A stretch of DNA of 61,225 nt from an uncultured bacterium (GCA_950096895.1 CATNBF010000005.1:1-61225), one strand, 5' to 3'. Numbered from the stretch's first letter, positions 11,556-47,657 are shown. Notes: generated by a model from the letters alone, not told the origin. A program made the numbers and translations.

Positions 11556-11678
11556 ATTATGCGCACAAAAAACCGACGTTTTTCTGGCATAGTACGGGGG
11601 ATAAAAAAGTGGAGAAATCCGGGATTTTTAATGTTCAAAAACTATGCCAGAAAAACGTCCCTTTGGATTAGGCATAGT
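11556..11678 (-). repeat. CTATGCC three-arm palindromic leader element, copy A
   Basis: Reverse complement nearly identical to 47533-47657; perfect 19-bp inverted repeat 11575-11593 / 11641-11659. Confidence 0.9.
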
Positions 11679-11833
11679 GTTTATGTCCAAAAGCCCGCAG
11701 ATTATATGACATAGGGCGTTTTTTTTGCAAGTTAAAATTATGTATTTTTATTCGCCCCCAGATGGCGTCAAAATATCATATAAATACGGGCGTTTATCAA
11801 CGCCCGTATACATCGCGTATGTCGTTATAATTT

Positions 11834-12583
11834 TTAGAACGAATAGCGGGCACCCAACTTTAATTCATGGGCATAGACGAATTCGCCACCCACTGTTGAT
11901 GAATTAAAGCGATATGCCACATCGGCTGCCCAGTTCGGGGTAAAGTGATATGCCGTCCCCAGGGCAACTTGCCATTCGAATTCGGTCTTGTCGTGGGTTA
12001 CGCGGATGGGTTCGGTTGGTAACTGGCTTAGCATTGGGCCAACCAATCCCGCCAGTGCCGGGTTGATGTCCAGATTGATATCGACCTTGGCCTTTTGCTT
12101 GTACGTACCGACACCAATACCGGCCCCGATATAGGGTTGCCATTTGGAACCTGCAATATCAAAATCGTAATAGGCATTGAACATGTACGAGTTATGCTTT
12201 ACCGAAACAGATGTATTCGCGTTCAACGTTGCCATTCCTTCGCGTAATGCCGGGATCAGATGGCTGGCATCGCCATGAAACAGGTTATAATCATCTTCGG
12301 ATGCGCTGCGCAGTGCGAATTCGAATTCCCCGCGCAGGTGGCCATATTTAATCCCGGCGGTAAATTCCCCGGAGATGGCCGTATCAAAATTCATATCACC
12401 GCCAGCATCTTGGACAAAAATGTCGGCCATGCCGGTTGGATTCGGATTGATTCCCATACGTTTGGCCGATGTATTCGCGCTATCGATAACGACCCCCAGA
12501 CCAACGTATGGCGTCAAATCAGCCGCAACGGCACCGGTGGTGGCCATTGTTGCCAACGCAATGATACCAATTGATTTTTTCAT
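11834..12583 (-). CDS. outer membrane beta-barrel protein (OmpA-like / opacity-porin family)
   Basis: Signal peptide, MFNAYYDF, PYIGAGIG, WQVALG, C-terminal GARYSF. Confidence 0.88.
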   Translation of the reverse strand: MKKSIGIIALATMATTGAVAADLTPYVGLGVVIDSANTSAKRMGINPNPTGMADIFVQDAGGDMNFDTAISGEFTAGIKYGHLRGEFEFALRSASEDDYNLFHGDASHLIPALREGMATLNANTSVSVKHNSYMFNAYYDFDIAGSKWQPYIGAGIGVGTYKQKAKVDINLDINPALAGLVGPMLSQLPTEPIRVTHDKTEFEWQVALGTAYHFTPNWAADVAYRFNSSTVGGEFVYAHELKLGARYSF

Positions 12584-12741
12584 ATGTTCTCCTTTCCTTG
12601 AACTTAACAGTACATGGGAAGATTATCCCATGTTGTATCGATGATGTCAAACATAATCGATCATCGCGACACATTTCGATGGGAATAGGTGCCCGTGGCA
12701 ATTTCATCCCCCAGATAATACAATTCAATACAACCAAGGGG

Positions 12742-13218
12742 GAGAAATCAATATTTGTCATTGCATGTGCAATCTGTGGATTTCGCGGCGCAGCTATCGC
12801 TGCGACAGTTACAGGAAACGCATCTGTGATCATCCAGCGGGCCATTACCGCCACCCAGACCCAACAAATGAATTTTGGTATTGTTAATCCGGCGGCAACA
12901 GCCGGGGTGGTCACGTTATCGCCCGCGGGTACCGCATCATCGGCAACGTTGACCACATATGGAACCGCGGCGGCGGGACATTTTGATATTACTGCGGCCC
13001 CATCGACGGCATTAAATATATCTTTTACAAATGGTACGGTGACCAGTGGATCAAACACCATGACGGTTGACACATTTACATCCACCACAACGCCAACCAG
13101 TAATACAACCGACGCATCAGGAAATCTGACATTAAATGTGGGGGCCAATCTGAATGTCGGGGCGAACCAAGCCCCGGGGACATACAATGGGACATATACG
13201 GTGACGGTTAATTATTGA
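12742..13218 (+). pseudogene. DUF4402 / Csu-type pilin subunit, start codon apparently lost
   Basis: MNFG...LNVGANLNVGANQAPGTYNGTYTVTVNY; signal peptide begins GAG-AAA-TCA-ATA-TTT after AAGGGG with no ATG. Confidence 0.65.
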
Positions 13219-14123
13219 TGCGTGTTGTTTGGGGTTTTATTTGCGGTCTTGTGATAATCGGTTCGGCATCTGGGGCAACGTTTACAGCGGTTAAAAACCT
13301 GTCATTCGGAACCTAGGTGCCAACCGCCACATCGGGCAATGCGGTTGTTGCATTGAACGGGAACATTACCCGTACTGGATTAACCGCTGCGCCCAGCGGT
13401 ACATTACATTACGCCGGCCAGGTAAATTTTACAGGCAGTGGTCTGTCCGCTGTTGCAGACGTTGTAAATATGACGTTTTTGAATTCATCTGTCACGTTAA
13501 GTGATGTGACCGGGGGCACGGTAACTGTTAACAATTTTACAATTACACCCAATTTACAAATATCAATCGCCAATCCAACAGCGGTGGCGGCGGTGGGCGG
13601 AACAATGACGTTTACATCTGCATCGACACCCGGCAATTATACCGGCAGTGTTCAGATCCGTGGAAATTCGTTGTTGGGGGGAACGGCCACAGTGACATTA
13701 CCAATAACATTAACGCTGTGGCGGACATTGGGGGTAACCCAGACGCGGGCATTGCATTTTGGCGCACTAGAGGTCACAGGTGGCAATTCCGTTGTGGTCA
13801 TGTCACCTGGGGGTGCACGGCATATTGCGTCGGGAACATCGGGGGTGCGCTTGGTTGCTTCGGTGCCGGGGACATCTGCAATGTTTACAGTCACCGGCAA
13901 TCCCAATACACCTGTTACAATAACATTGCCGGCATCGGCCACATTATCTGGGCCCGGTGCGGCGATGACGGTCAATAATTTTGCGCGGACCCCGGCGGCA
14001 CCAACCCCCAATCTGGATGCATCGGGAAATTTGACATTTAATGTGGGGGCATCGTTGGCGGTCAATGCGTCCCAGGCCACCGGGACATACAACGGAACCT
14101 ATACCGTGACAGTTAATTATTAA
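13218..14123 (+). pseudogene. two-domain DUF4402 pilin/adhesin with in-frame TAG
   Basis: ATG 13218 overlaps the upstream TGA; signal peptide MRVVWGFICGLVIIGSASGA; TAG at 13314-13316 (LSFGT*VPT); ends GTYNGTYTVTVNY. Confidence 0.8.
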
Positions 14124-14149
14124 TAATACACAGGGAAAAAGAGAGATAC

Positions 14150-14917
14150 ATGCGGCATTTCTTGTTTTTGTTTTTTGGATTGATGTTACCCATGACGGCC
14201 ATGGGCAATATTTCATTGACCACATTTTATATGGAATTCGATGCCGACAGTCCGCGTCGCACAGATAACTTGCGTTTTACAAATACATCAGATTCGCCCA
14301 AGACATATGACATTTCTATGGTCAATTTTGCCCAGAATTCTGATGGTGAATATCGCCCCATTGAAACACCAATGATGGGAAATCCCTTTGCAGATTCTTA
14401 TTTAGATTTTGCGCCGCGTCGTGTGACGTTGGCCCCATCCCAATCCCAGGTTGTTCGTGTTGTGCGCCGCCCCATGGCCGGGGCCGAAAATGGGGAATAT
14501 GTATCACATCTAAAAATTCAAGAATTACCCGATCAAACAATGATGAATTCAGGGGCAACGAACAGTAATGGGATAAATATTAATTTGCGCCCCCTGTATG
14601 CTGTAACAATTCCGGTGATGATTGAAAAAGGATCCCCCCGTGCATCGGCGTTAATTCGCAGTGTTGAAATCTATAACGCCAAAACGAATCCAATTGCCGC
14701 CGTAATGGTTGAACGTGGGGGAAATCGATCTTTTTATGGGACATTGGTTGTGACAGATGATGGTGTCGAATTGGGGCGTGTTTCCAACTTTCGTATTTTT
14801 ATGACGACGTCGGCACGCGTGATAAAGATCCCGCTTAATCGACGTCCTTTGCCAGGCAGTATGGTTACCCTTTATGACTAGACAACACATGAAATCGTGG
14901 ATGCGTGGCGCATATAG
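14150..14917 (+). pseudogene. pilus assembly chaperone (PapD/CsuC-like), TAG 12 codons before probable end
   Basis: FAPRRVTLAPSQSQVVRV, GEYVSHL, YAVTIPV; TAG 14879-14881 then TTHEIVDAWRI*. May remain functional. Confidence 0.65.
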
Positions 14918-17414
14918 TCTTTTGTGTGGCGTATTTATTGTGTCACCTGGGGTGGCGGCGGAAATGCTGCTGGAACCGAATATCGGGGGTGTGCCGACCG
15001 GTGATGCGGTGCATGCCATCGATTTATCTGGGATATATATGCTGGATTGGGGGGACATGCTGGGGGCGATGCGTGTTCGTTATGATGATGCCACGCGCCA
15101 GGGTAATGTATCTGAGCATTCGTTTCAATTGGCCCAAGATATGCCGGTACGCACGTTTGATGGTCGTGATTTTTATTCTATTGCGGTTTATGAAAAAATA
15201 TTACCCATCCGCTTAAACGTTGATTTATCAGAAATGCGGTTAAATGTCGCATCAGATATTATCTTGCCAGTGGAATTAGAATCCAGAAATATGGCGCGGC
15301 GGCAATCAATGCCCCGGGCACCAATGTCAGATACATTTGCAGATTATCAATTTGATAATCGCTGGTTTACATTTCCTGTGGTTGACTTTATTTATCGTTA
15401 TAATCATAATTTTCGCCATATTAACCGGGATGATTATGGGCATGTTGGCGGAAATTATTACCAGGCGAACCTGGGGATGATCTTGGCCGGCCAAGATGCC
15501 CGTATTATCCTGTTTGGGGACGATATGGGAAATGCCCATTTGGGTGATATGCGTGCCCGGATAACAGTGGGGCGAACATTGCTGGACGAACCGGGAAATG
15601 CATTAAACTTGGTCCGGTATGCGGCGGGTGATATTACCGGTGTCCAAGGCAATATGTTCTATGATGCGCCAATTGGACGTGGGGCGTTGTTCAGTTCGTT
15701 CAAAGACCTGGTGACATCGGCCGACAAGACCATTGATATCACCGGGCCATTGCCCGCTGGATGGGATGCAGAACTGTATTTGAATAACCAATTGATTGGA
15801 TTTCGTCAATCGTCCATAACAGGGCGGTATGAATTTAAGAATGTACCGGTTAATTATGGGTTGAATGATTTTCGGGTGGTGCTCTATGGACCATACGGCG
15901 AAGTTCGTGATATCCCCCGTCGATTTTATTCTGGAACATCACCTGTGGGGGCGGGACAGCTGGGCTATAACATCGTTGCGATGCAGCCATATCGATATAT
16001 GATTGAAACCAATGAACCGATGCATCATTCGTCGGATCATGTTGCAGGCGACGCGACATTTTATTACGGGTTAACCGATCATATCACATTGATATCTGGT
16101 CTGGTTAATGCATTGGATGTTACAGAACCATTTCATGTTAACCAGTTTGGGACCGTCGGGGCCCAATTGGCGTTAAATGGATTATCGGTTCAATATAATA
16201 CAAATATGAATCTGAACAATGGTCACATCGGTCATCATATCGATGCCCAAGGGGATGTGTACATTGGGACTTTGTTTGGGCGATACGAGTATTATGGTGA
16301 CACCATGTCCCCCATATCCTATTATGCGGGGGGATATTTACGTGATTTATTCGAAGCGCGTCTGACCGGAAATATTCCCTGGATTCAAATGCCGTATTAT
16401 GTTGCCTATACGGCACGGGGCGGACATGATAATCATACCATGCAAGAGATTGTAACGCGCCTATCACCGAATTTTCTGCGTTATTATAATATTACCATCG
16501 AAGATACATGGCGACGTGATCATTTGAATACAGAAAACTATATTGATGTCATGTTCCAGGCAACATATGGACGCATGCGTGGGAATGGCCGTGCCCGCTA
16601 TCAAACGACCCCAGATAGTGTCTTGCGTGATTACGGGGCCTTTGCCGAATATCGTTGGGACAAGAACACTTTTGTTACAGCGACATGGACACATGATTGT
16701 CGATCGAATTATAGCGATGGCCCGGATATCGATACCTTTGGAATGGGGGTGGGGCGGTTGTTTCGTTTTGGGGGAATTAACCTTAGTGCCGCAATCGATA
16801 CCGATCGTAATTTGTCTTTTGGATTGACGTATAACATCAGTATGGGACGTGTCCCTGGGGCGGCGCGTCTGTTTACCAATTCAGAAAACCAGATGATTGA
16901 TTATGGAACGATCTATGCCCGTGTGCGCGATGACACCGGTGCCCCGGTTCCGGGTGTAACATTAATTGTTAATGGCCGCGAGGCCCCATCCCTGACCGAC
17001 ATCAATGGGGATGCCATTATTACCAATTTGGAACCATATCAAAAATCATCCATTATTGTTGATGAACAAAATGTGGCAGATTTATCACTGGTGCCCGAAT
17101 GGACATCAGAAAAGTTGGTCTTGCGCCCAGGGGTGGTGCGGCCTGTGGATGTTATATTTAATCATTTGGGGGCGGTCGAAGGCCAGATTTCGAATCCTGG
17201 GGTTGGATCCGGCTATATGATTTATCTGCGTGATGATCATGGTGAAATCGTGGCAACACGACGTGCCGATTCAAATGGTTGATTTATATTTGATGGGATT
17301 AAGTATGGTGATTACAACCTGTGTGTCGTTAATTCCTGTGGTGTGGTTGTTTCCCGCATGAATATCAAGATTGATCGTGCATTCCAGACCATAAAAACAT
17401 CTGTTGCGTCATAG
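14901..17414 (+). pseudogene. fimbrial usher-like outer membrane protein with in-frame TGA
   Basis: WDAELYLNNQL, YGLNDFRVVLYGPYGE; TGA at 17280-17282 followed in frame by FIFDGIKYGDYNL...SVAS*. Confidence 0.78.
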
Positions 17415-17462
17415 GGGGTAAATCGTGTACAATGTGTTTTATCCAAGGGGGGAAATGACGCC

Positions 17463-18569
17463 GTGGCCATTCGTATTTCTGTTTCAGATCGCACACTGCA
17501 TATCATTGTAACGGGTGATGTGCGTACTGTTCGGGCCGATACATGGCATGCAGCATTATGGCGGGTGACAGATGCCCATGTTGGGGCGGTGGTCGTTGAT
17601 GGAACCGATATCACTATGTGGGATAGTGTGCTGATCGTCTTTCTGCGTCGTGTGATGGCGGTATGCGCCCAGAAAAATATTCGTGTTCAAATTAAAAGTA
17701 TGCCGGCCGGCGTTGGGGCATTGTTAAAAATGTCTGGGACGGCGGCATGCACAATGCCAGATGTTCGGCCCCAATTAACCTGGGTCGAACAGATGGGGGA
17801 TTGGGGATGGCGTCTGTCCGGGGCGGTGCGTCATGGGATTTCTTTTATTGGATCGGTTGGGGCATCGGTTGGACGTATGTTTCGTGGCCGTGCCCAGACC
17901 CGCATGACAGATTGGTGGTTTGCCTTTGATGATGTTGGGCCCCGGGCAATTTTAATTGTATCGTTAATCAGTTTTTTAATCGGCTTGATTTTGGCCTTTG
18001 TTGGCGCGGCCCAGTTAAAATTATTTGGCGCACAGGTATATGTCGCCAGTTTGGTTGCCATTGCGGCAATTCGTATTATGGGGGCGATGATGACCGGCAT
18101 TATTATGGCGGGGCGTACCGGTGCATCTTATGCCGCGACCATCGGGACAATGCAGACCAACGAAGAACTGGATGCCTTGCGCACCATGGGGATCAGCCGG
18201 ATTGACTTTCTGGTGTTACCGCGAATTATCGCCATGGTGGTATCTATGCCGATATTGACGCTATTGGCGGATGCGATGGCCATACTGGGGGGAATGGCGG
18301 TTGGGGTGTTGATGTTTAATATACCCTTGGCGGAATATATGTCATATACGATTGATGCCTTGGGGATCCAGAATTTTATGGTTGGGATCTTTCATGGGTT
18401 CGTTTATGGCGTGATTATTGCGCTGTGTGGATGTTATTACGGGATTAATTGCGGGCGTAATGCCAACGCGGTTGGGTCGGCCACAACACGGGCGGTTGTG
18501 ATGTCAATTGTTTGGATGGTTGTTGCCACTGGGATTATCACTTTTGTATTCGAGGTGCTGGGCATATGA
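17463..18569 (+). CDS. mlaE: MlaE family ABC permease with N-terminal STAS-like domain
   Basis: AGRTGASYAATIGTMQTNEELDALRTMGI, LVLPRI, VGSATTRAVV. Confidence 0.92.
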   Translation: MAIRISVSDRTLHIIVTGDVRTVRADTWHAALWRVTDAHVGAVVVDGTDITMWDSVLIVFLRRVMAVCAQKNIRVQIKSMPAGVGALLKMSGTAACTMPDVRPQLTWVEQMGDWGWRLSGAVRHGISFIGSVGASVGRMFRGRAQTRMTDWWFAFDDVGPRAILIVSLISFLIGLILAFVGAAQLKLFGAQVYVASLVAIAAIRIMGAMMTGIIMAGRTGASYAATIGTMQTNEELDALRTMGISRIDFLVLPRIIAMVVSMPILTLLADAMAILGGMAVGVLMFNIPLAEYMSYTIDALGIQNFMVGIFHGFVYGVIIALCGCYYGINCGRNANAVGSATTRAVVMSIVWMVVATGIITFVFEVLGI

Positions 18570-19321: not shown

Positions 19322-19325
19322 AAAA

Positions 19326-20075: not shown

Positions 20076-20077
20076 AC

Positions 20078-20635: not shown

Positions 20636-20640
20636 CGCAT

Positions 20641-21570: not shown

Positions 21571-21614
21571 ATGGGGGATTATATGCGTATCACGTGTTCC
21601 CCGCCATAGGTTTA

Positions 21615-22793: not shown

Positions 22794-22893
22794 GAATTTA
22801 TTTATAGCATTGGGGGACATAAAAATCCATCAGATTTTCGCCGTGCCAGATGGTAATCGATGCATTAAAATCCCGCCATTTGGCGGGATATTT

Positions 22894-25984: not shown

Positions 25985-26061
25985 TGGTGGGTTAGGTAGG
26001 ACTTGAACCCACGACCAAAGCGTTATGAGCGCTCCGCTCTAACCAACTGAGCTACTAACCC
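25985..26061 (-). tRNA. tRNA with CAT anticodon, probably tRNA-Ile2 (lysidine)
   Basis: GGGTTAG/CTAACCC acceptor stem, GAGCG-CTCATAA-CGCTT arm, GGTTCAAGTCC, ACCA; paired 1:72 excludes initiator; Ile2 versus elongator Met is inferred. Confidence 0.9.
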
Positions 26062-31376: not shown

Positions 31377-31380
31377 ACTA

Positions 31381-33808: not shown

Positions 33809-33837
33809 TTTTTTGCCTTTCCATTCATTAATATTCA

Positions 33838-34110
33838 ATGTCCGGTTTCTGGTGCCAGGTACCGGACAAACCCCGCAATCGCTAAAACGAATACAATCAA
33901 CAATTGCCAACTGTATTCAACGCCACATTAGGCAGCCATTGCAAGACGAACATTATCGTTCGCATTCATTTTTTATTTGGTCTTTTACGACACCACGTCG
34001 GATTCAGCCATATACCTTTATTACGCCTGTCGAAACTGTATCATCCCCATGATTTTTTAGTGGTGGAGATGCCGGGTACCGCCCCCGGGTCCAAAACGTC
34101 TATTCCGTAA
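33838..34110 (-). ncRNA. ssrA: circularly permuted two-piece tmRNA, tag reading frame ANDNVRLAMAA
   Basis: Acceptor piece ...GACCCGGGGGCGGTACCCGGCATCTCCACCA ends at 34061, short spacer, coding piece starts GGGGATGA at 34048; tag ORF 33963-33928; outer ends approximate. Confidence 0.92.
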
Positions 34111-34189
34111 AGGGTTCAGAATCATCACCGTTTGCACGGCACATACATTATAATCTTTCCGGTGGAAATTGCAAGTTTTTAAGTTATAA

Positions 34190-36397: not shown

Positions 36398-36442
36398 GAA
36401 AATCCCCCATTTGGGGGATTTTTAATTGGGTATCTTTGAAAT

Positions 36443-37511: not shown

Positions 37512-37619
37512 GATTGATTATGGTACCAAGTTATTTGATTAAATCAATAGATAAATGATTGCCTTTTGTTCGCCAATGTGTTAAAATTTATTGTAATTAA
37601 GTAGAGAGGGGATCCAACA

Positions 37620-38849: not shown

Positions 38850-39421
38850 AATTCCCCGCCGCATGGTGGGATTTTTTTATCATTGCCCAGATGATAATTT
38901 ATGCGCCCCCCGGCATTTTGAATTGGGTGCCGCCCCCCCTTTGTCGCCGCGGCGGTGGCGTTACACCGTCATGGCGGGACAGTGGCCCTTTATTAATAAT
39001 ACCATTATGCTTATACACATTGTTATCGGTTGTGGGGCCTAATACCACCGTATCCTTGCAATGGCACATGCATTTGGGTGTAATCACAACGCAGCGGTCA
39101 TTCCCGAACACTTGGTGTTATTTGTTTACCGCACCAGCCCCAGGCCGGCCCACATGCATCCGGTTTCATGGGATTGATCGCCGGTCTGGGATGATGCGAT
39201 GCCGTCGTCACATCCCGATCATGCCAGACCGCTATGCAATGTGTGATGCGTCATGGACGTCAAGCGGGCGTCAGTTTTTACGATTTGAACGCAGAATCCA
39301 CGCAAAAAAACGCATCAAAACATGGATCGAATGTGATGCAAAAAAATGGCAAACAGCGTGAAAATTCACTTGTAAAAAATCGCGGAACCGGTTATAATTC
39401 CTGGCGTAGAACAAAAAAGAC

Positions 39422-39527
39422 CTATGCCTAATCTAAACCACCCTTTGGATTAGGCATTTTTTTTATTTTCAAAAACACCGGATTTCCGCCATTTCTGAAA
39501 GTGCCTACTATGCCTAATCCAAAGGGT
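39422..39527 (+). repeat. CTATGCC three-arm palindromic leader element, copy B
   Basis: Perfect 18-bp inverted repeat 39440-39457 / 39510-39527; arms match copies A and C; follows TTGTAA-17-TATAAT (39370-39398). Confidence 0.85.
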
Positions 39528-39613
39528 CAGTTTCATCCTGTGAAACCCTTCCTTTTGCATTTGGCACGATGTAATGGAATCTTTACATCATAAATATAAA
39601 GGAGCAGATAATC

Positions 39614-40495
39614 ATGAAAAAAGTTGCGATTCTATACATTGCCTTGGGTCGTTACATTGTATTTTGGCGGGATTTTTATGAATCTTGCGAACGATACTTG
39701 GGGCCTTGTGAAAAACATTATTTTATCTGGACAGATAATCAAGAATTTGATTACTGTGATGCGCCCAATGTGACGGTTATCCCGGCGACACGTCGGGGCT
39801 GGCCGTATGATACATTGATGCGGTTCGAAATGTTTTTGGGCCAAGAAAGCGCATTGAAAAACTATGATTACGTTTATTTCTTTAACGCCAATATGGAATT
39901 TATCGCCCCTGTGGATTTGGCCGAAATTATACCATGCCCGTGGCACGATGGACTGGTTGCGGGATCGCATCCTGGGCGTTGGGGGGCGGGGGATACCTTG
40001 GCACACGAAATCGACAGCTTTCCCTATGAACGTCGTCCAGAATCAACCGCCTATATTCCCTTTGGGGCGGGGCGTTATTATGTCTGTGGGGCGTTTAATG
40101 GGGGAACGTCCGCGGCCTATTTGACGATGTGTAAAACACTGGCCCAGAATATACAAACCGATTTACAGCATGGCATTGTTGCACGTGTTGATGACGAAAG
40201 TCACTTGAATGCGTATTTATTAAATCGAAACTTCCGCTTGTGCGGGCGGGCCTATGGTTTTCCCGAAGGTAAGTTAAAACACATTCCGTCTATTGGGATG
40301 CCGATGGTAAAAATTATCAGTCGTCACAAAGACAGTCCGAAATACGGTGGGGTGTCATGGCTGCGGGGGAAAACAGATAAAAAAATGCCCAACAATTGGT
40401 TTACCCGGAACGTAATGCGGGGATGCGCCCGTGTGGTTGCCGTGTTTATACCGGTGCGTTCTGTGCGTCAACGTGTTCGAACCTATTTTGGGTAA
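39614..40495 (+). CDS. family 6 glycosyltransferase (ABO-like)
   Basis: IALGRY, FFNAN (NXN in place of DXD), GAFNGG, DESHLN. Confidence 0.88.
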   Translation: MKKVAILYIALGRYIVFWRDFYESCERYLGPCEKHYFIWTDNQEFDYCDAPNVTVIPATRRGWPYDTLMRFEMFLGQESALKNYDYVYFFNANMEFIAPVDLAEIIPCPWHDGLVAGSHPGRWGAGDTLAHEIDSFPYERRPESTAYIPFGAGRYYVCGAFNGGTSAAYLTMCKTLAQNIQTDLQHGIVARVDDESHLNAYLLNRNFRLCGRAYGFPEGKLKHIPSIGMPMVKIISRHKDSPKYGGVSWLRGKTDKKMPNNWFTRNVMRGCARVVAVFIPVRSVRQRVRTYFG

Positions 40496-40547
40496 ATGGG
40501 GTATTGTGCGGCTTGCATATGGGGGGAAATTTTGGTATAATTTTCAT

Positions 40548-41693
40548 ATGCAAATATCCAGACGCAGTCTTTTAAGAATAACAGGGATTGGGGTTTTATT
40601 GATTGGCAATTTGCCCCGTGTGGCGTTTGCGGCACGAAATTCACTGAAATCTATGCGCACAGGGGTTCAGCCTGGAAATAAAAGCCGCCTGGTGATTGAA
40701 ACCGCGTTGCGTCCGTCATACACGCTAAGCTATCTGGAAAATCAGCTGGTGGTTAGTATTGCCAATACACCCGCCAATCAATCGGTGCGGGCCAAATTGG
40801 CAGATTCCGCATTGGTAAAATCTGTATCCCAGGTTCAACACGGCGATCGTTTGCAAATTATTGCCAACTTGCGTCAATCAATCGGCCAAATTCCCAAGAA
40901 TCAAATTATGATCTTGGAACCTAATGGGGATAATGATTATCGGTTGGTGTTGGATTTCTCGGTTGGGAATCCCATTACGATTGCCGCTGACACCACAGTG
41001 GCCAAGCCTGCGGCGGAAAAGCATGTGATTGTCATTGATGCCGGCCACGGGGGCAAGGATCCTGGCTGTATCGGCAAAGGGGGAACCAAAGAAAAAACTA
41101 TCGTTTTGGCGGTGGCAAAGAAATTGAAAAAGCAATTAGATGCGGCCGGATTCAAAACATATTTAACACGCAGTACGGATGAATACTTAAAATTGGGTGA
41201 ACGTGCGGCGATTGCCGAACGGCGCAAGGCGGATTTATTCTTGTCGTTGCATGCCAATGCAAACCCCAGCCGTGCGGTCAAGGGCTTTTCAATTTATACA
41301 TTATCAGAAAAGGCATCTGACGAAGAAGCCCGCAAATTGGCAGAGGCAGAAAATGCCGCAGATAAAATCGGGGTCAAGGGATTTGGTGGCTTTGAAAAAG
41401 AAGTGCGTGCGGCATTGTCTTCGTTGCAACAACATGCGGTCGCAGAAATGAGTGAAGAATACGCCACAAGCTGTTCTAAATCTTTCCGCAGTGCCAGTAT
41501 CACCGCGCAACCCGGGCCCGGCGTGCGCCATGCCCCATTTGCGGTCTTGCGGTCAACGGTGCCTGGGGCGTTATTAGAACTGGGGCATTTATCAAATGCC
41601 GCCGAAGAAAAATTATTATCATCCGATGCGCATCAAAACAAACTGGTTAATGCGATTGTGAAATCGGTTAAAAACTATAACTTTGACGTATAA
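40548..41693 (+). CDS. amiC: N-acetylmuramoyl-L-alanine amidase with Tat signal and AMIN domain
   Basis: SRRSLL, IDAGHGGKDPG, SLHANA, LLELGHLSN. Confidence 0.88.
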   Translation: MQISRRSLLRITGIGVLLIGNLPRVAFAARNSLKSMRTGVQPGNKSRLVIETALRPSYTLSYLENQLVVSIANTPANQSVRAKLADSALVKSVSQVQHGDRLQIIANLRQSIGQIPKNQIMILEPNGDNDYRLVLDFSVGNPITIAADTTVAKPAAEKHVIVIDAGHGGKDPGCIGKGGTKEKTIVLAVAKKLKKQLDAAGFKTYLTRSTDEYLKLGERAAIAERRKADLFLSLHANANPSRAVKGFSIYTLSEKASDEEARKLAEAENAADKIGVKGFGGFEKEVRAALSSLQQHAVAEMSEEYATSCSKSFRSASITAQPGPGVRHAPFAVLRSTVPGALLELGHLSNAAEEKLLSSDAHQNKLVNAIVKSVKNYNFDV

Positions 41694-41796
41694 AAGACCG
41701 GGTCAAAATGCCCCGATAATTTTATTCATTCATCCCTATGGCGTGGGTGAATGCTGGTGTGATAGAATAAGGGGTGCAACCAAAAGGAATCATAAA

Positions 41797-41973
41797 ATGC
41801 CATTGATCAAGGGATGTTCGCGCCGCGCCATTTCTGAAAACATTCGAACCGAAACCCGCGCAGGTCGACCCCATAAACAGGCGGTCGCCATCGCATTATC
41901 CATTGCCGACAAAAACGCCGCGAAATGCAAGGCACGTACGCCGAAAACCAAATCCACGAAATCGTCGCGATAA
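41797..41973 (+). CDS. small basic phage-type protein
   Basis: MPLIKGCSRRAISENIRTE...RPHKQAVAIALSIA resembles a small protein seen near phage head genes. Confidence 0.65.
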   Translation: MPLIKGCSRRAISENIRTETRAGRPHKQAVAIALSIADKNAAKCKARTPKTKSTKSSR

Positions 41974-42001
41974 TCCGCGTGTCCGGGCATGTGGACGTTC
42001 C

Positions 42002-42492
42002 TTACATTGTAATGGCACCGCCCGTGTTATTGATATGAAACGTGTTGCCAAATTCAAACTCGTCCGGGCGGCACCATTTGTCACATCCGGATTGAATGGA
42101 TATTTTCATAAGATTTTCGGCGATGTCAAAATTTAATTCACAATCTTCGAATTCGCGACGGTCCATGTTACGCCGCCGATACTCTGCAATGGCAAGACCG
42201 GATGCATGTTTGTCATTATCAATATGTAATTTACCCCACATGATACACACCGAATGAAACGGTTTGCCGTGTTCCATTGTCATTTGAAAAAGCATACGTT
42301 ATCGTGACAACTTGAAATCTTTATTTTGACCGGTTCACAGCCCTCATCAACTATTTCTTGGCGGATGTCATCATAATAATAACATGATTCCCATTTGTTT
42401 TCTTGTAAAAACAGATTATCTTTTGCACTACAAAAATCAGGGAAAACAGTGCAGAATACAAAACAAATTATTAAACCACGTTTATATCGCAT
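42002..42492 (-). pseudogene. secreted hypothetical protein, frameshifted
   Basis: Signal-peptide ORF 42280-42492 and ORF 42002-42295 join if the T5 run (42287-42291) were T6. Confidence 0.6.
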
Positions 42493-42663
42493 TATTGCCC
42501 CCGTTTGATTATATTATAACCCTTGCATAAAATGTTCATATGTCCAAAGATTAGTTGGGCATTATACTTTTTTATTGATTGATTCATGATGCCGCCGCAT
42601 AATTTATCCCATGAAGTTTATTAAAGCGTTATTTGGAAATTTTTTCCTGGGGTAAGTGATAAA

Positions 42664-43038
42664 ATGCTAAAAAAAATTTTTCTTATATTTCTTGTGCTTT
42701 TAAATATTAATCCAGTGGGTGCGGACACGTCCCAAAATATATTACGTCTGCAAACGGATACGTATTTTATAGAGATTCATGGCCGTGCAGATAATGATTT
42801 TACCTATTATTCATGGAAGAAGAAAAGTTACAATAAAGATAAACCGGATTTAATTCTATTAAATGGCGCGATGGATTATGACGGCAGTGGGGGAAATATA
42901 TCATATACGTTCCGGAACGGTACCTATACATACGAAATATATCAACATGTCATAGGTACCGAATTTACACCCCCTTATTCGTTAAGCGTTTATGATAATA
43001 ATAAATTAATTTTGAATCAGCCTGCACACCCCCTTTAA
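42664..43038 (+). CDS. secreted hypothetical protein
   Basis: Signal peptide; YYSW...PDLILLNG...DGSGGN.SYTFRNGTYTY. Confidence 0.7.
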   Translation: MLKKIFLIFLVLLNINPVGADTSQNILRLQTDTYFIEIHGRADNDFTYYSWKKKSYNKDKPDLILLNGAMDYDGSGGNISYTFRNGTYTYEIYQHVIGTEFTPPYSLSVYDNNKLILNQPAHPL

Positions 43039-43040
43039 TA

Positions 43041-43949
43041 TTAATAGAAATAATAATAGTTATTGTTAAACATTTCCCATTCATAGTTTCGGCGATTTAT
43101 TAATCCTGTTGAAACTTTGCCATTGCTGCGATTCCATGCTTTCCAAGCTTTTTCTTGTGTGGGATAAATATTACTAACATAATTTTTATCATTTATATAT
43201 TTTACAATTGTAGAATTTTTGAAATTTCCAGCCCCAATATTGAATGCAAGTGATACCAATGCATCATATTGATTCTGCGATAGGGGGTGCGTAATATTCT
43301 CTTGAACCACACGCTGCGCTTTCGCGATATCATTCATTAATAATTCCGTTGCCTGTTTTTCGGTTAAGCCTTTGGAGAAATCTTCGCCCGGCTTGATTAA
43401 ATGCCCGTATCCGATTGTCGCCCCTTTGGGCAAAGGACCATCGGGCAGAATCGGAAATTTGGTTCTGTCGTCATAAATTATATGTTTGTCGTTTTGCTTA
43501 ACGCATCCTTCTTTGTCTTTTAACCATTCAATACCGCGGTCACTTATTTTCATATCTTTTGCTTCCTTTTCTTGTGGTTCATTTGTTTTTGTCATGTATT
43601 TTTTGCTTTGCAGGGTGCGGCCATCTTCGTCGACAATATCTTGGGTTATATAACATTGACAGTTGGGATGGACCGGCATCTCTGGAATGTCTGCAACATC
43701 AAAAAAGACTGCGCCGTCACGTGCACCGCATTTTTCGCACATGTTGTGGCCATTTTCGGCGTGCCAAATCCACACGCGCATAACTTTGCGAAAGTCGGGC
43801 AGGTCCAAATCATATGTTTCTAAAAATCGCTTTTGAACATAACCGCCTGGTTCCAGAACGTGAACGGGAATGCGTTCATCGGTGACAACAAAATCTTCGA
43901 TATCAAAATCGTACCCTAATATTTCAAAGGATTCCCCGTATTCGTCCAA
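43041..43949 (-). CDS. MuF/minor-head-like domain fused to GH24 phage lysozyme (5' region decayed)
   Basis: CEKCGARDG...PVHPNCQC; then KDKEG, TIGYGH, QYDALVSLAFNIG, GLINRRNYE. Confidence 0.8.
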   Translation of the reverse strand: MDEYGESFEILGYDFDIEDFVVTDERIPVHVLEPGGYVQKRFLETYDLDLPDFRKVMRVWIWHAENGHNMCEKCGARDGAVFFDVADIPEMPVHPNCQCYITQDIVDEDGRTLQSKKYMTKTNEPQEKEAKDMKISDRGIEWLKDKEGCVKQNDKHIIYDDRTKFPILPDGPLPKGATIGYGHLIKPGEDFSKGLTEKQATELLMNDIAKAQRVVQENITHPLSQNQYDALVSLAFNIGAGNFKNSTIVKYINDKNYVSNIYPTQEKAWKAWNRSNGKVSTGLINRRNYEWEMFNNNYYYFY

Positions 43950-44381
43950 GATTTCTTTTCATCCTTGTATTCTTGAAATTTGCTGTCAATTTTGTTTTGG
44001 GCATCGATAAACTGGGGGGGCGGGTCATATCATATTCCGGATCCACCATGCGGCCTGTGGCATCGTATGTTATTTGGCCAGGCTACAGCATCCGCATATA
44101 TTCCTCAACACGTCGGACGATCGTGTCATGGTTGGGGTTCATTTTATTGGCATAGGCGTCTGATTGCATTAATCGCGCCACTAAAGTCTGGGATTTTTGG
44201 CATTGTTTACTCTCCGTCTGGGTGTTAAAAAAAACGCCCACATGGGGCGCATAATAAAAAGGGAAACGGCGGGAAATCCCGCCGTAATCATGAATTTATC
44301 ATAACACAAAACGGCATAAAAATCAATAGAAAACATAAACCCCTTGCAAAAAGAAACAAAACCTGTATAATGCCCATCCGT

Positions 44382-44471
44382 GGAGACGTGGCAGAGTGGT
44401 TGAATGCGCGCGACTCGAAATCGTGTATACGGGCAACCGTATCGGGGGTTCAAATCCCTCCGTCTCCGCCA
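44382..44471 (+). tRNA. tRNA-Ser(CGA)
   Basis: GGAGACG/CGTCTCC, CGCGA-CTCGAAA-TCGTG, long variable arm, CCA; promoter TTGCAA-16-TATAAT at 44344-44371. Confidence 0.96.
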
Positions 44472-44743
44472 TTATTATAAAATGCGCCAACGGTGTATTT
44501 TATAATAATGCTGGCACAGGGGATGCAGAACACCCGATACGGGGGTTCACTATGAGTAATCGAAACCGAGTGATAACGAAGGTTGAGAGCTAACGAATGC
44601 CGCGCATGCACCATGAAATGGTGACAAGTGACTACGACTAGGCGAGACAAGTGAAGCATAGTCGAGCCGTTAGGAGTGCTGCGCAGGAACCATGAAATGG
44701 TGCCCAGCGAAATCCCTCCGTCTCCGCCATTATTATAAAATGC
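44452..44743 (+). mobile_element. 258-bp non-coding tRNA-associated insert bounded by 34-bp direct repeats
   Basis: AAATCCCTCCGTCTCCGCCATTATTATAAAATGC at 44452-44485 and 44710-44743. Confidence 0.75.
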
Positions 44744-44801
44744 CCATGGATATGGCATTTTAATTTTATAATTTATATATTCATTATATCGGTGGTAAAA
44801 A

Positions 44802-45146
44802 ATGAAAACGTTTAACGAACAGGTTTACGATATTGTGGCGCGCATCCCATCCGGGCGCGTGGCGACGTTTGGGCAAATTGCCCGTATGATTGGGCGGCCA
44901 CGGATGGCACGCTTTGTCGGGTACGCATCGAATAACAAGGCGTCATGGCATCTGCCGTGGCATCGCGTGGTGTTCAAGGATGGATCCCTGTGCGGTGCGG
45001 GATTCTTTGAACAACAATTAAAAGCCCTGAAAGCCGAAGGTGTCAAGTTCGACGCGGATCACAAAGTCATCATGGAACAATTTCAATGGGACCCGGACCG
45101 TGACGGCATGCCGATGGACATTCGGGATTTACCGTTGGTGTTTTAA
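44802..45146 (+). CDS. alkyltransferase-like (ATL/YbaZ) MGMT family protein
   Basis: IPSGRVATFGQIA, ARFVG, LPWHRVV (Trp replaces the catalytic Cys). Confidence 0.9.
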   Translation: MKTFNEQVYDIVARIPSGRVATFGQIARMIGRPRMARFVGYASNNKASWHLPWHRVVFKDGSLCGAGFFEQQLKALKAEGVKFDADHKVIMEQFQWDPDRDGMPMDIRDLPLVF

Positions 45147-46296
45147 GAGACGCGAACGCGCCGGTTGACCCGCATGGCAACCAGGGTGGCCCCTAGGTAA
45201 ATCAACACCAGTCCAATGGTATACCACGTTAACCCCAGGGGAATGTTGGGCAAAAACGCAACACCAATCAATCCGACGAACATCACAATGCGCCCCAAAT
45301 CAATCGAAAATTCGCGCAGGGTCAGGAATTCTTTTTCATATGATGGGATAACGCGGAACAACGTATAAGTGATGGGTTCGTACACCAATTTTAATAATTC
45401 ATGACCCAATGTAAAGCAAAGGCAGTAAATCAAGAAGTTTAATTCGGTTAAGTTCATCAAGGCCCATAAACAGATTCCCAACAGAATCAGACCAATCATA
45501 AAAATAGAGCGAAAATGCTTCTGCGACCCAAATCGGCCGAATAAAAATCGAAAGACAATCAATCCGAGCATCAATCCTGAATTAATCAGTCCCAGACTAA
45601 GATCCGTTTTGAATAAATAGACGATTAGCATGGTCTGGACAACGGTCAAAACCATGATAGACCCATATAAAAATTCCCCCAGCAAAAACAGGCTAATCGC
45701 CCGATGATATTTGGACTTTTTATACGCGGCATAAAATTCTCGTATATTAAACACCGGACACTGGATCGGGGTGGGTGGTTCCTGAATCCATGTGGATATC
45801 AACATTATCCCCAGGCATACAATCAAAATGACAATCGCCATCTGGGATACGAATATTGGCCCAGCAAGAATCTGCACAGTGCCGGAAAACATACCTTGAC
45901 CAGTGATCCAAAAATAGTGCGGTAACTGCTGAACTTTATTTGGTTCTTTATCAGGGATGTCTGCATATAGTTAAGTCCCAACGCTATCAACCCGATTGCC
46001 AATCCATAGACGGTACCCATAATCCAAACAAAGTTCAAGGCATCTGTTCCCGTCACGCCAATCACCGCCATCAATCCCATGCAAATAATTAATCCCCACC
46101 GATAAATCCGGGCGATGGATACGGATTTGAAAAAACAACATGCGAAATAGAATGACACAAAAACGAATATAGAAAAAAAGATATTATAGATGGTCACCGA
46201 AATAATAGGATTGGCATAGATACGCATAATATACGATGTCATAAATACGTTAAGAAACGAATCAGGAATCCAGCTTAGGGACTTTAGCGCAACCAA
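45143..46296 (-). pseudogene. MFS-like transporter, frameshifted
   Basis: Two multi-TM ORFs join as ...GQYSYPQMAIV... if the C3 run (45844-45846) were C4. Confidence 0.7.
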
Positions 46297-46357
46297 CGGC
46301 CAAAATTTTTACCAAGTTGTCCAAGTTTCTTCATTTTTATTCTCGTTTGTTTTTTTC

Positions 46358-47374
46358 TTATATTATTCCGGCGCGACTAAGGGCGGCAAATGCCTTTTTC
46401 ATTAATGTTGATGTGGGATACACACCCAAATCGTCGGGCGATACAAAGACACCGTCGATGCCGGGCGCGTCACATTCAATAACATGCAATTCCAAGGTCA
46501 ACTTAAAATGTGTAAAGGTATGCATAACGCAAATGCCGGTGTCTGTTCCCGGTGTGTCAATGACCGGGGTACCGTCGTCGGTCCAGGGGGCTTCGTACAA
46601 TCCGGCCAACAGGCCACGTCCCGTCCGCCGGCGGATAAAGATTTGACCACCATGGTTTTTGATGATGTATGCCCGACCGATTTTTTCTTTCTTTTGTAAT
46701 TTAAGAATAACTGGAATACGGTCAACCGTACCATCCTGGTGCGTCATACAATGATTTCGTAATGGGCATGTATCGCATGATGGATTTTTTGGTGTACATA
46801 CAGTTGCACCAAAGTCCATAATCGCCGATGCATAATCGGCCGGGCGATCCCGACTGGTTAATGTATCTGCGGCGGCACGAATTTGATCCATGATTGTTGC
46901 CACAGGCACATCCCATCCATTCAGACGACATATGACACGCACCACATTCCCATCAACCACAGGTTCAGGTTGGTTGAACGCCAATGACAAAATACTGGCC
47001 GCGGTATACGGACCAATTCCCGGCATGCGGATTAATGCGTCACGTGTGGATGGAAATTGTCCATCCAAATCATGGGCAATCATTTGGGCGGTGCGATGTA
47101 ACGATCGGGCGCGTGAATAATATCCCAATCCAGCCCACAGCGAATAAACATATTCATCCGACGCATTGGCCAAATCTTGTATTGTTGGACACGCATCCAT
47201 AAACCGTGAAAAATACGATTCTACGGTGGCAACTGTTGTCTGTTGCAGCATGAATTCAGAAACCAACACATGATATGGGTTGGGATGCGCACCGCCCCGA
47301 TGTCGCCATGGTAAATCACGGCCACATTTATCGAACCAGTCCAGTAATAATTGTGTTTCTGGGATTAATGACAT
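46358..47374 (-). CDS. mutY: A/G-specific adenine glycosylase
   Basis: RDLPWR, VSEFMLQQT, WAGLGYYSRAR, PGIGPYTA, VDGNVVRV, CTPKNPSCDTCPLRNHC. Confidence 0.95.
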   Translation of the reverse strand: MSLIPETQLLLDWFDKCGRDLPWRHRGGAHPNPYHVLVSEFMLQQTTVATVESYFSRFMDACPTIQDLANASDEYVYSLWAGLGYYSRARSLHRTAQMIAHDLDGQFPSTRDALIRMPGIGPYTAASILSLAFNQPEPVVDGNVVRVICRLNGWDVPVATIMDQIRAAADTLTSRDRPADYASAIMDFGATVCTPKNPSCDTCPLRNHCMTHQDGTVDRIPVILKLQKKEKIGRAYIIKNHGGQIFIRRRTGRGLLAGLYEAPWTDDGTPVIDTPGTDTGICVMHTFTHFKLTLELHVIECDAPGIDGVFVSPDDLGVYPTSTLMKKAFAALSRAGII

Positions 47375-47532
47375 GAATTAAATCATGGGTAAAAGTCGCA
47401 TAAATGTCAATAAAAAATAGAAATAAATCCCCAATCAATAATCCCAAGGAATACAAAAGAATAAAAGCCCAAAATCATGCTTGTAAAAAATTGATGAATA
47501 CTTTATAATCCGTGGTGTTGCGGGAAATTTAC

Positions 47533-47657
47533 CTATGCCTAATCCAAAGGGACGTTTTTCTGGCATAGTTTTTGAACATTAAAAATCCCGGATTTCTGCA
47601 CTTTTTTATCCCCCGTACTATGCCTAATCTAAACGTCGGTTTTTTATGCGCAATAAT
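47533..47657 (+). repeat. CTATGCC three-arm palindromic leader element, copy C
   Basis: Near-identical to the reverse complement of 11556-11678; follows TTGTAA-17-TATAAT (47481-47509); arm 3 contains the ATG at 47620. Confidence 0.9.

What the first reader, a model, noticed from the sequence alone, without database searches (positions are those of the whole stretch)
11556..47657. Three-armed CTATGCC palindromic leader at a fixed distance from promoters of probable surface genes, with shuffled arms
Seen: three copies (11556-11678 minus, 39422-39527, 47533-47657) with layout arm1 > <arm2, a 47-52 bp spacer carrying AAAAA(TC/CA)CCGGATTTC, then arm3 >. Each begins 23-24 nt after the TATAAT of a near-consensus sigma70 promoter (TTGCAA or TTGTAA, 17-18 spacer) and faces its downstream gene. 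Three arm variants (ATGCCTAATCCAAAGGG, ATGCCAGAAAAACGTC, ATGCCTAATCTAAAC) are permuted among positions: arm2:arm3 is a perfect 19-bp IR in A, a different perfect 18-bp IR in B, and broken in C. Arm2 can pair with arm1 or arm3 but not both. Downstream genes are a choline/aminoglycoside-kinase-like gene, a GT6 glycosyltransferase and a Cys-rich surface protein. Inference: a dispersed cis-regulatory RNA switch or recombination-tuned phase-variation cassette for cell-surface genes. The fixed promoter spacing argues against a randomly inserted REP/MITE.
Basis: partly seen in the sequence, partly recalled or inferred. Interest (0 to 1): 0.85.

Follow-up and report, generated by a model that had tools for sequence, protein, structure and literature searches.

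The report
Miniature DNA-inversion switches before surface genes
The three "palindromic leaders" are copies of a roughly 195-bp promoter-plus-switch cassette, repeated about 30 times in a 1-Mb mouse-gut bacterium, in which an 85-bp piece of DNA between two invertase-type sites appears to flip and so turn surface and glycan genes on or off.

Summary
All three copies sit at the stated places, each 23 nt after a near-consensus promoter.

They belong to a family of 30 copies in this 1-Mb genome. All 30 carry the same promoter, so the promoter is part of the repeat.

The "shuffled arms" are half-sites of two recombination sites: arm1|arm2, and arm3|downstream T-tract. Both sites fit the Hin/Gin crossover-site pattern (AAA-NN-[2 bp]-NN-TTT), and their core dinucleotides are reverse-complementary. 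The cores lie 83-86 bp apart in 82 of the 83 copies that fit the model (90 examined, five genomes).

The block arm2-spacer-arm3 occurs in both orientations among paralogues and across species. At copy B it is inverted in a contig from another mouse-gut sample.

The genome encodes two Mpi-family serine DNA invertases.

Flipping moves a Shine-Dalgarno sequence plus start codon into frame with the gene. In copy B's class it also removes the T-run that makes the arm1:arm2 hairpin a terminator.

Best reading (confidence 0.7): a dispersed set of miniature invertons giving phase variation of secreted proteins and glycosyltransferases. This is a new variant of a known kind. Switching within one population and the enzyme responsible remain unproven.

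The parts
11701..11730 (-). Copy A promoter (-35 TTGCAA at 11730-11725, -10 TATAAT at 11706-11701)
   Evidence: 10 of 12 matches. The same block lies upstream of all 30 copies.
11642..11677 (-). Copy A site 1: arm1 half-site (11677-11660), core GA (11659-11658), arm2 half-site (11657-11642)
11593..11641 (-). Copy A spacer, 49 nt, forward (F) orientation. It carries the reverse complement of a Shine-Dalgarno sequence plus start codon.
11565..11592 (-). Copy A site 2: arm3 half-site (11592-11577), core TC (11576-11575), downstream GG-T-tract half-site (11574-11565)
   Evidence: The cores are 83 bp apart.
10644..11514 (-). Gene served by copy A: APH/choline-kinase-like, read as two ORFs that overlap at a G6 run
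39370..39398 (+). Copy B promoter (TTGTAA-17-TATAAT)
39422..39457 (+). Copy B site 1: arm1 (39422-39439), core AC (39440-39441), arm2 (39442-39457). As RNA it forms a 14-pair hairpin.
39458..39507 (+). Copy B spacer, 50 nt, F orientation. Its first 8 bases are T and complete a terminator-like site with the arm1:arm2 hairpin.
39508..39537 (+). Copy B site 2: arm3 (39508-39525), core GT (39526-39527), downstream half-site (39528-39537)
   Evidence: The block 39440-39527 is inverted in a contig of run X2 that continues into 39528-40576.
39614..40495 (+). Gene served by copy B: family 6 glycosyltransferase
47481..47509 (+). Copy C promoter (TTGTAA-17-TATAAT)
47533..47568 (+). Copy C site 1: arm1 (47533-47550), core GA (47551-47552), arm2 (47553-47568)
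47569..47617 (+). Copy C spacer, 49 nt, F orientation
47618..47647 (+). Copy C site 2: arm3 (47618-47635, holding the in-frame ATG at 47620), core TC (47636-47637), GG-T-tract half-site (47638-47647, which also encodes G-F-L)
   Evidence: The cores are 85 bp apart.
47620..49347 (+). Gene served by copy C: Cys-rich secreted protein whose start codon and first 6 codons lie inside arm3

Best explanation
Each copy is a promoter-plus-inverton cassette of about 195 bp.

Layout. A fixed sigma-70-type promoter fires into a leader that holds two serine-invertase crossover sites in inverted orientation. Site 1 is arm1|2-bp core|arm2. Site 2 is arm3|2-bp core|the GG-T-tract that follows. A small serine DNA invertase of the Mpi family (two are encoded elsewhere in the genome) would cut at the two cores and flip the 83-86 bp between them, which is arm2, spacer and arm3.

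R orientation. The spacer presents a Shine-Dalgarno sequence (GGGGGA or GGAGG) and an ATG, GTG or TTG in frame with the gene. This often supplies the charged start of the signal peptide. I infer that the gene is then ON.

F orientation (A, B and C in this assembly). These signals lie on the wrong strand. The only start left is the SD-less ATG inside arm3, which the arm2:arm3 helix can bury. A T-run from the spacer end now follows the arm1:arm2 hairpin and makes a terminator, clearly so in copy B's class. I infer that the gene is then OFF or low.

Shown: the anatomy, both orientations, the site pattern, the invertase genes, and the inversion of B in another sample.

Inferred: which enzyme acts, which orientation is ON, and that switching happens within a population.
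For: 1. Family. There are 30 copies in 998,742 bases. All 30 have the promoter block and face a downstream ORF.

2. Both orientations. Alignment scoring of 90 promoter-anchored copies gave, in the own genome, 17 F, 10 R and 3 unclear of 30. It gave 14 F, 6 R, 1 unclear of 21 in CASCZI01; 18 F, 1 R, 3 unclear of 22 in JAAVBR01; 14 F, 0 R, 3 unclear of 17 in CAXHMP01. My reading by eye of the 30 copies found and printed gives 18 F, 11 R, 1 unclear. One paralogue pair in CASCZI01 (L061 at +3087, F, and at +4680, R) has the same downstream gene.

3. The same locus in another sample. Run X2 holds a 1146-nt contig that joins 39440 to 39528 on opposite strands, with 18 shared letters. It continues through 39528-40576 with 2 differences. 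These are exactly the predicted cores of copy B.

4. Site model. It fits 83 of 90 anchored copies. Core pairs are GA/TC in 60, AC/GT in 15, GT/AC in 6 and AA/TT in 2. Core-to-core distances are 85 bp (46 copies), 84 (20), 86 (11), 83 (5) and 74 (1). The downstream half-site lies outside the inverted repeat, yet it reads GG in 78-79 of 83 copies and then T-rich, as in hix and gix (hix and gix cores from Table 1 of PMC3985619, passages read).

5. Enzyme. C1:42631-43275 scores 298.7 bits on NCBIfam NF009949, "master DNA invertase Mpi family" (cut-off 272). C10:9015-9617 scores 232.9 bits, below the cut-off. Both carry the Resolvase domain.

6. Co-occurrence. Of 80 congeners, 14 have 5 or more arm motifs, and 13 of those 14 have a close orthologue of the invertase (E<=1e-95). 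Among the other 66, 15 do. I chose the thresholds after seeing the data, and related genomes are not independent.

7. Virtual inversion. In F copies fused to their ORF, the actual start is an SD-less ATG in arm3. After in-silico inversion an in-frame start with an SD appears: in all 19 JAAVBR01 copies scored F, and in own copies at C4:54608, C6:9648 and C21:14650. Real R copies at C16:14634, C17:3686, C22:6382, C4:6436 and C4:3179 have an SD plus start in frame.

8. Terminator logic. In class AC/GT, F copies have 4-7 T in the 8 nt after arm2 (8 copies) and R copies have 1-2 (6 copies). Copy B is flagged terminator-like.

9. Cargo, read by eye. Of 27 evaluable downstream genes, 21 start with a signal-peptide-like segment. 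The rest are GT6, GT2, an MptE-like protein, a kinase, an ABC exporter and an HNH protein.
Against: - Only one direct observation of an inverted orthologous locus exists. It is a contig at about 6x depth from another sample, so it shows a difference between strains or samples, not switching within a population.
- No inversion joint was reported for copy C in the 4 runs laid.
- An 83-86-bp segment is far shorter than the invertible segments I know for Hin, Gin or Mpi (recalled, not checked). Synapsis would need strong bending, and no enhancer or bending-protein site was identified.
- In JAAVBR01 and CAXHMP01 nearly all copies are F, and arm2 and arm3 share only 8-11 bp there. These copies could be locked.
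- F copies often keep an in-frame ATG, so F may not be fully OFF.
- One genome with real-looking elements (G052, 6 motifs, 92% complete) showed no Mpi-like gene at E<=1e-20.
- Complementarity of the two cores was a condition of my site search, so it is not independent evidence. The distances and the outer half-site consensus were not imposed.
- Whether these sites resemble the sites Mpi uses in Bacteroides could not be checked. The paper was not held, and a motif I recalled was found in no held paper.
Confidence: 0.7

Rival explanations
1. A purely RNA-level switch. Arm2 pairs either with arm1 or with arm3, and this controls termination or access to the arm3 AUG in response to a factor, temperature or translation. 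DNA inversion plays no regulatory part.
For: The arms can form both helices. In MFE folds of the full leader, arm2 pairs with arm3 and buries the AUG. The arm1:arm2 hairpin alone is -19 to -22 kcal/mol in copy B's class and -10 to -12 in the class of A and C. In B it is followed by a U-run. Arm changes are compensated across species (G017 and G015; L029).
Against: This reading does not explain several things:
- The spacer, and the whole arm2-spacer-arm3 block, occur in both orientations.
- The downstream half-site outside any helix is conserved.
- The reverse complement of an SD plus start codon is kept in frame in F copies.

No Rfam family matches these places at gathering thresholds. The compensated changes are equally expected for inverted repeats kept for recombination.
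Confidence: 0.12
2. The inversions are real but not programmed. Short inverted repeats occasionally flip their spacer through replication template switching or homologous recombination. The two orientations are then evolutionary relics of a duplicated promoter/leader/signal-peptide module.
For: Most copies with long perfect repeats could flip without an enzyme. The direct evidence is one difference between samples. Cassettes are gained and lost between species: the orthologue of the own ABC transporter in CASCZI01 (90% amino-acid identity) has no cassette.
Against: - The boundaries of inverted blocks coincide with a fixed 2-bp core even where arm2 and arm3 are different half-sites sharing only 7-8 bp. 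Own C4:3179 compared with the JAAVBR01 majority shows this, as does own C20:16635 compared with copy C.
- The sites match the hix/gix pattern, including a half-site outside the repeat.
- The distance between cores is held at 83-86 bp.
- Both orientations keep working signals.
- Mpi-family invertases co-occur with the elements.
Confidence: 0.12
3. A mobile repeat (MITE, REP/BIME or REPIN-like) that carries an outward promoter and lands upstream of genes. On this reading the palindromes are transposition ends.
For: The repeat is dispersed and present or absent at orthologous genes. It is palindromic, ends in CTAT/ATAG, and shows shuffled modules reminiscent of BIMEs (that resemblance is recalled, not tested).
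Against: No Y1 transposase/RAYT gene was found (PF01797, 0 matches, genome 93% complete). All 30 of 30 copies have the same orientation relative to a downstream gene, and many are translationally fused to it. The two ends of the unit (promoter side and T-tract side) are not inverted repeats of each other, as read. Target-site duplications were not examined.
Confidence: 0.06

Closest known systems
Mpi, the master serine invertase of Bacteroides fragilis, with its dispersed invertible promoters of capsular polysaccharide loci (cited as Coyne et al. 2003 in PMC12632263 and PMC7641763, passages read; the paper itself was not held)
   Same: A small serine invertase encoded away from its targets. 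Many dispersed invertible regions in one genome. Targets are surface-architecture genes of a gut commensal. The own protein passes NCBIfam's Mpi-family cut-off.
   Different: The promoter lies outside the flipped DNA, and what flips is the leader. The segment is 83-86 bp. The host is a 1-Mb alphaproteobacterium. Site similarity to Mpi's own sites was not testable here.
Hin/hix and Gin/gix inversion systems
   Same: The crossover-site pattern N4-AAA-NN-[2 bp]-NN-TTT-N4 and matched 2-bp cores in inverted orientation (against Table 1 of PMC3985619).
   Different: Hin and Gin flip one large segment (about 1 and 3 kb, recalled) with a Fis-bound enhancer (PMC3798978, abstract seen in the search listing). 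Here there are about 30 segments of 85 bp and no enhancer was identified. The base pairs next to the core differ: GG/CG here, CC/GG in hix and gix.
cwpV and flgB switches of Clostridioides difficile
   Same: The invertible element lies between a fixed promoter and the gene, and one orientation terminates transcription.
   Different: Those use the tyrosine recombinase RecV and segments of roughly 150-200 bp. Here the terminator hairpin is the recombination site itself, only the U-run is brought in by the flip, and an SD plus start codon is flipped as well.
Partial intergenic and intragenic invertons (PhaVa survey, PMC10028968, passages read)
   Same: One repeat lies in the intergenic DNA and the other in the 5' end of the gene. 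The flip recodes the N-terminus.
   Different: In that survey the partial intergenic class is described as mostly long, shufflon-like elements. I saw no multi-copy family of 85-bp elements with a fixed promoter in the passages read. Supplementary tables were closed and could hold such cases.
Mycoplasma penetrans mpl promoter inversions
   Same: Dozens of surface-protein genes in a small genome, each with its own small invertible element.
   Different: There the promoter itself inverts (about 135 bp, 12-bp repeats, recalled).

Membership tests
Serine-invertase inverton (Hin/Gin/Mpi type) | A small serine recombinase of the invertase type is encoded in the genome | tested here: met
   PF00239 finds two genes. 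NF009949 (Mpi family) scores 298.7 bits (cut-off 272) and 232.9 bits. Both have the Resolvase domain, and the 200-aa protein also has a C-terminal HTH.
Serine-invertase inverton (Hin/Gin/Mpi type) | Two pseudo-palindromic crossover sites in inverted orientation with the same 2-bp core | tested here: met
   83 of 90 copies fit, and the A-tracts and T-tracts are placed as in hix and gix. Core complementarity was a search condition. The spacing and the outer half-site consensus were not.
Serine-invertase inverton (Hin/Gin/Mpi type) | The DNA between the sites exists in both orientations | tested here: met
   Seen among paralogues and across species, and at locus B between two samples.
Serine-invertase inverton (Hin/Gin/Mpi type) | Both orientations coexist within one clonal population (reversible switching) | not testable with these tools
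   Only assembled contigs of public runs at about 5x depth could be laid.
Serine-invertase inverton (Hin/Gin/Mpi type) | The recombinase binds and recombines these sites; enhancer or accessory factor | not testable with these tools
   Needs biochemistry or a heterologous assay.
Invertible promoter (fimS, Bacteroides PS promoters) | The promoter lies inside the invertible segment | tested here: not met
   The -35 and -10 boxes lie 23-52 nt upstream of site 1 in A, B and C and in all 30 copies.
Invertible-terminator leader (cwpV type) | One orientation creates an intrinsic terminator between promoter and gene | tested here: inconclusive
   By pattern only. Copy B is flagged. In class AC/GT, F copies have 4-7 T of 8 after the hairpin and R copies have 1-2. 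No transcript data.
REP/BIME/REPIN | A RAYT (Y1 transposase) is present; the elements lie at 3' ends or between genes in either orientation | tested here: not met
   PF01797 gives 0 matches. All 30 copies lie 5' of a gene in one orientation.
Known cis-regulatory RNA family (Rfam) | A match to a curated covariance model | tested here: not met
   At gathering thresholds the window gives only tmRNA and 4 tRNAs.

The most novel reading that the evidence does not exclude
A master serine invertase drives about 30 miniature invertons (85 bp between crossover points, perhaps the shortest programmed inversions known) in a 1-Mb genome. On this reading the recombination site doubles as the terminator hairpin. 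The flipped piece swaps the U-run, the Shine-Dalgarno sequence, the start codon and the start of the signal peptide. Separate core-dinucleotide classes (GA/TC, AC/GT, AA/TT) keep sub-regulons from recombining with each other, possibly one class per invertase paralogue.
Probability: 0.45. Interest if true: 0.85.

Novelty: new variant of a known kind. Interest (0 to 1): 0.72.

Why it matters
If this reading is right, an uncultured gut alphaproteobacterium with a reduced genome devotes roughly 30 promoters to stochastic ON/OFF control of its secreted Cys-rich proteins, LRR-like surface proteins and glycan-modifying enzymes. By my estimate that is a few percent of its operons.

The switch design differs from the classical invertible promoter. 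It acts after initiation, on termination and on translation start, and it packs the whole device into about 120 bp.

It would also test how short a DNA segment a serine invertase can flip.

Finally, it offers a compact natural part (fixed promoter plus an 85-bp flip) and a ready marker for tracking phase states of these bacteria in mouse-gut metagenomes.

Tried and rejected
- Rfam scan of the window: nothing at the three places.
- RAYT/Y1 transposase: none found.
- Tyrosine recombinases: 5 found. Two are XerC/XerD-like and the rest are integrase-like. I did not pursue them, because the sites look like serine-invertase sites.
- Metagenome-contig scans. A 25-mer gave 0 hits. The 19-mer arm gave 10 loci, all chance matches with no cassette; nine lie in one conserved coding gene. 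A few genome-contig hits in Bacillales, Prevotella and Hyphomicrobiales records yielded no promoter-anchored cassette.
- Read laying. No inversion joint was reported at copy C. The joints 39422|47617 and 39384|47504, and several loose ends, match paralogous copies and were not used. Parts of the stretch without cover say nothing.
- The Mpi paper (PMC193581) was not held. A repeat consensus that I recalled for Mpi sites occurs in no held paper, so it is not used.
- Literature searches for an inverton carrying an RBS, start codon or signal peptide, and for phase variation in mouse-gut RF32-type Alphaproteobacteria, listed nothing relevant. I have not established the organism's order name.
- My first idea, that arm3 plus the T-run is a terminator, was dropped. 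The T-run is the outer half-site and encodes G-F-L of the signal peptide.
- An IHF-site or REP/BIME analogy and a uORF-attenuation model were considered and set aside for lack of support.


Full report
**What is there**

Each has a CTATGCC-headed arm1, an inverted arm2 directly after it, a 49-50-nt spacer with the AAAAA..CCGGATTTC motif, and a third arm in the direction of arm1. All of this begins 23 nt after the TATAAT of a promoter that matches 10 of 12 consensus positions. The pattern is far from chance: 2 matches in the window against 0 in 100 shuffles, and 56 arm motifs in the genome against 1 for the reversed control. Pfam confirms the genes behind them: APH/choline-kinase-like for A, Glyco_transf_6 for B, and a Cys-rich protein without a Pfam match for C.

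**The family**

The window is contig C5 of a 998,742-base, 41-contig, 93%-complete genome with an alpha-type tmRNA. Public runs that hold the stretch are mouse-gut metagenomes.

A genome-wide search finds 30 copies. Every one is preceded by the same conserved block (A-rich stretch, CTTGyAAAAAA, 17-18 nt, TATAAT, about 23 nt). Every one faces an ORF on the same strand where the contig allows a check. So the "fixed distance to a promoter" arises because the promoter is part of the repeated unit.

The exact 19-mer of one arm recurs in several other uncultured gut Alphaproteobacteria MAGs. After anchoring on the promoter I collected 90 copies: 30 own, 22 from JAAVBR01, 21 from CASCZI01, 17 from CAXHMP01, and 1 from CALXWX01, minus a few truncated ones. 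More distant congeners carry diverged versions in which arm1, arm2 and arm3 have changed together.

**The key observation**

Among these copies the spacer occurs in both orientations. More precisely, the whole block arm2-spacer-arm3 does. Where arm2 and arm3 are perfect repeats, as in A and B, only the spacer appears flipped. Where they are different arm types, the arms change places as predicted:
- The JAAVBR01 majority form and own copy C4:3179 are exact inversions of each other about an 8-bp repeat.
- Own copy C20:16635 has the arm2 expected if copy C's block were inverted.

This explains the "shuffled arms".

**The sites**

I aligned the sequences around the inversion boundaries. Arm1|arm2 and arm3|downstream each form a 20-bp unit N4-AAA-NN-[2 bp]-NN-TTT-N4. 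This is the layout of the Gin and Hin crossover cores listed in Table 1 of PMC3985619.

For A and C, site 1 reads ATCC AAA GG GA CG TTT TTCT, and site 2 reads (AGAA or ATCT) AAA CG TC GG TTT TTT(G or A). For B, site 1 reads ATCT AAA CC AC CC TTT GGAT and site 2 reads ATCC AAA GG GT CA GTT TCAT.

Of the 90 copies, 83 fit. Core pairs are GA/TC (60), AC/GT (15), GT/AC (6) and AA/TT (2). Core-to-core distances are 85 bp (46), 84 (20), 86 (11), 83 (5) and 74 (1). Seven did not fit: own C6:20153, C10:6022 and C20:9637, CASCZI01 L023, L033 and L069, and CAXHMP01 L030. Some of these are spurious anchors.

I required the two cores to be complementary, so that feature is built in. The narrow spacing was not imposed. 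Nor was the consensus of the outer downstream half-site, GG then T-rich in 78-83 of 83 copies, and that half-site lies outside any inverted repeat. In A and B the perfect repeat ends exactly at the core dinucleotide.

**The enzyme**

The genome has two small serine recombinases. One passes NCBIfam's equivalog cut-off for the "master DNA invertase Mpi family" (298.7 against 272 bits). The other scores 232.9. Both have the Resolvase catalytic domain. No Y1 transposase was found. The five tyrosine recombinases look like XerC, XerD and integrases.

Across 80 congeners, 13 of the 14 genomes with 5 or more arm motifs have a close orthologue of the first invertase, against 15 of the other 66. The exception is G052. 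The thresholds are post hoc and related genomes are not independent, so this is supportive only.

**Direct evidence**

Contigs of four public mouse-gut runs were laid on 39000-48000. In run X2, a 1146-nt contig joins 39440 to 39528 on opposite strands with 18 ambiguous letters, then runs through the GT6 gene to 40576 with two differences. That is copy B with the block between its two cores inverted.

It is one contig at about 6x depth from a different sample. It therefore shows that the orthologous locus exists in both states in nature, not that one population switches.

**What the flip does (inference from sequence)**

The spacer carries, on one strand, GGGGGA or GGAGG followed 6-8 nt later by ATG, GTG or TTG.

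In real R-state copies (own C16:14634, C17:3686, C22:6382, C4:6436, C4:3179, C1:35742) this start is in frame with the long ORF. It supplies an N-terminus such as MQKSGIF.. or MRKSGIF.. ahead of the hydrophobic core.

In F-state copies the only in-frame start is the ATG inside arm3, with C-rich sequence rather than an SD before it. Some have no start at all (own C4:54608; ACG in C1:34525 and C21:14650). Inverting the block in silico creates an in-frame SD plus start in every one of the 19 JAAVBR01 copies scored F, and in several others. Three different arm-length combinations all keep the frame in both states.

Second, the F spacer begins with a T-run directly after arm2. In B's class the arm1:arm2 hairpin (14-16 pairs, -19 to -22 kcal/mol) plus this T-run is flagged as terminator-like. 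F copies there have 4-7 T in 8, and R copies have 1-2. Some spacers of that class also hold a GC hairpin that is followed by T6-7 only in F.

Third, MFE folds pair arm2 with arm3 in both states. This buries the arm3 AUG but leaves the spacer's SD and start in the loop.

I therefore read R as ON and F as OFF or low. A, B and C are all F in this assembly. This assignment is the least secure part.

**Cargo**

Of 27 downstream genes that can be judged, 21 begin with a signal-peptide-like segment, judged by eye. Fourteen of these are Cys-rich proteins. Seven belong to a paralogous family with repeats that look LRR-like to me and have no Pfam match. The rest are GT6, GT2, an MptE-like protein, the kinase, an ABC exporter and an HNH protein.

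Cassettes are gained, lost and exchanged between species. The ABC exporter's orthologue in CASCZI01 (90% identity) has no cassette. The GT2 orthologue there carries a cassette of the other core class.

**Comparison and novelty**

The system works like Mpi-controlled phase variation in Bacteroides (a master serine invertase, dispersed targets, surface genes) and like hix/gix recombination at the level of the site.

It is not an invertible promoter, because the promoter is outside the flipped DNA. Functionally it is nearest to leader switches such as cwpV (recalled). It differs in recombinase class and in size, in using the recombination-site palindrome as the terminator stem, and in flipping translation signals.

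Surveys of invertons describe partial intergenic and intragenic classes (PMC10028968, passages read). In what I could read I saw no multi-copy 85-bp family like this one, and supplements were closed. Two further searches listed nothing relevant.

I rate it a new variant of a known kind.

**Weak points**

- There is a single direct inversion observation.
- There is no within-population data.
- It is physically uncertain whether 85 bp can be flipped.
- The ON/OFF assignment is unproven.
- Some lineages (JAAVBR01, CAXHMP01) may carry mostly locked copies.

Noticed in passing
window 10644-11514 (minus strand), G6 run at about 11278-11283: The kinase-like gene behind copy A is read as two overlapping ORFs that change frame around a run of six G. 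This could be a frameshift, an assembly error or slipped-strand phase variation of a licA-like gene.
   Followed up: partly
own genome C1:34525 and C21:14650 (not in the window): In these two F-state copies the arm3 ATG is ACG, so the fused ORFs have no nearby in-frame ATG in this orientation.
   Followed up: no
own genome C8:42626, C9:27023, C14:11153, C17:17313, C21:6536, C36:681, C40:4371: These copies serve a paralogous family of secreted proteins. The members share the N-terminal domain AEMVNVEYIHNAIKQKWDITVPYN.. and repeats of the form IPENLF..G.P..MF..TF..C..LTG, and have no Pfam match. Several contigs end inside these genes or their cassettes.
   Followed up: partly
L061:960-1260 (CASCZI01) compared with own C3:56899: The 90%-identical orthologue of the cassette-driven ABC exporter has an unrelated upstream region without a cassette. 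Cassettes therefore move or are replaced between species. How they spread is unexplained.
   Followed up: partly
window 33837-34178 (minus strand): A permuted alpha-type tmRNA (173 bits). Four tRNAs lie in the window at 10205-10292, 25988-26061, 44382-44468 and 60410-60495.
   Followed up: no
window 53775-55025 (plus strand): A 416-aa phage-type tyrosine integrase gene lies about 5.4 kb from the tRNA at 60410-60495. This may mark an integrated element.
   Followed up: no
spacers of all copies, e.g. window 47582-47594: A conserved near-palindrome AAATCC(C)GGATTT lies about 5 bp off the centre of the invertible block. In R it encodes K-S-G-I-F. It might also be a protein-binding or bending site.
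   Followed up: no
L096-L104 (metagenome contigs): The 19-mer arm sequence also occurs by chance inside one conserved coding gene of unrelated contigs. Exact 19-mer scans therefore give false positives.
   Followed up: yes
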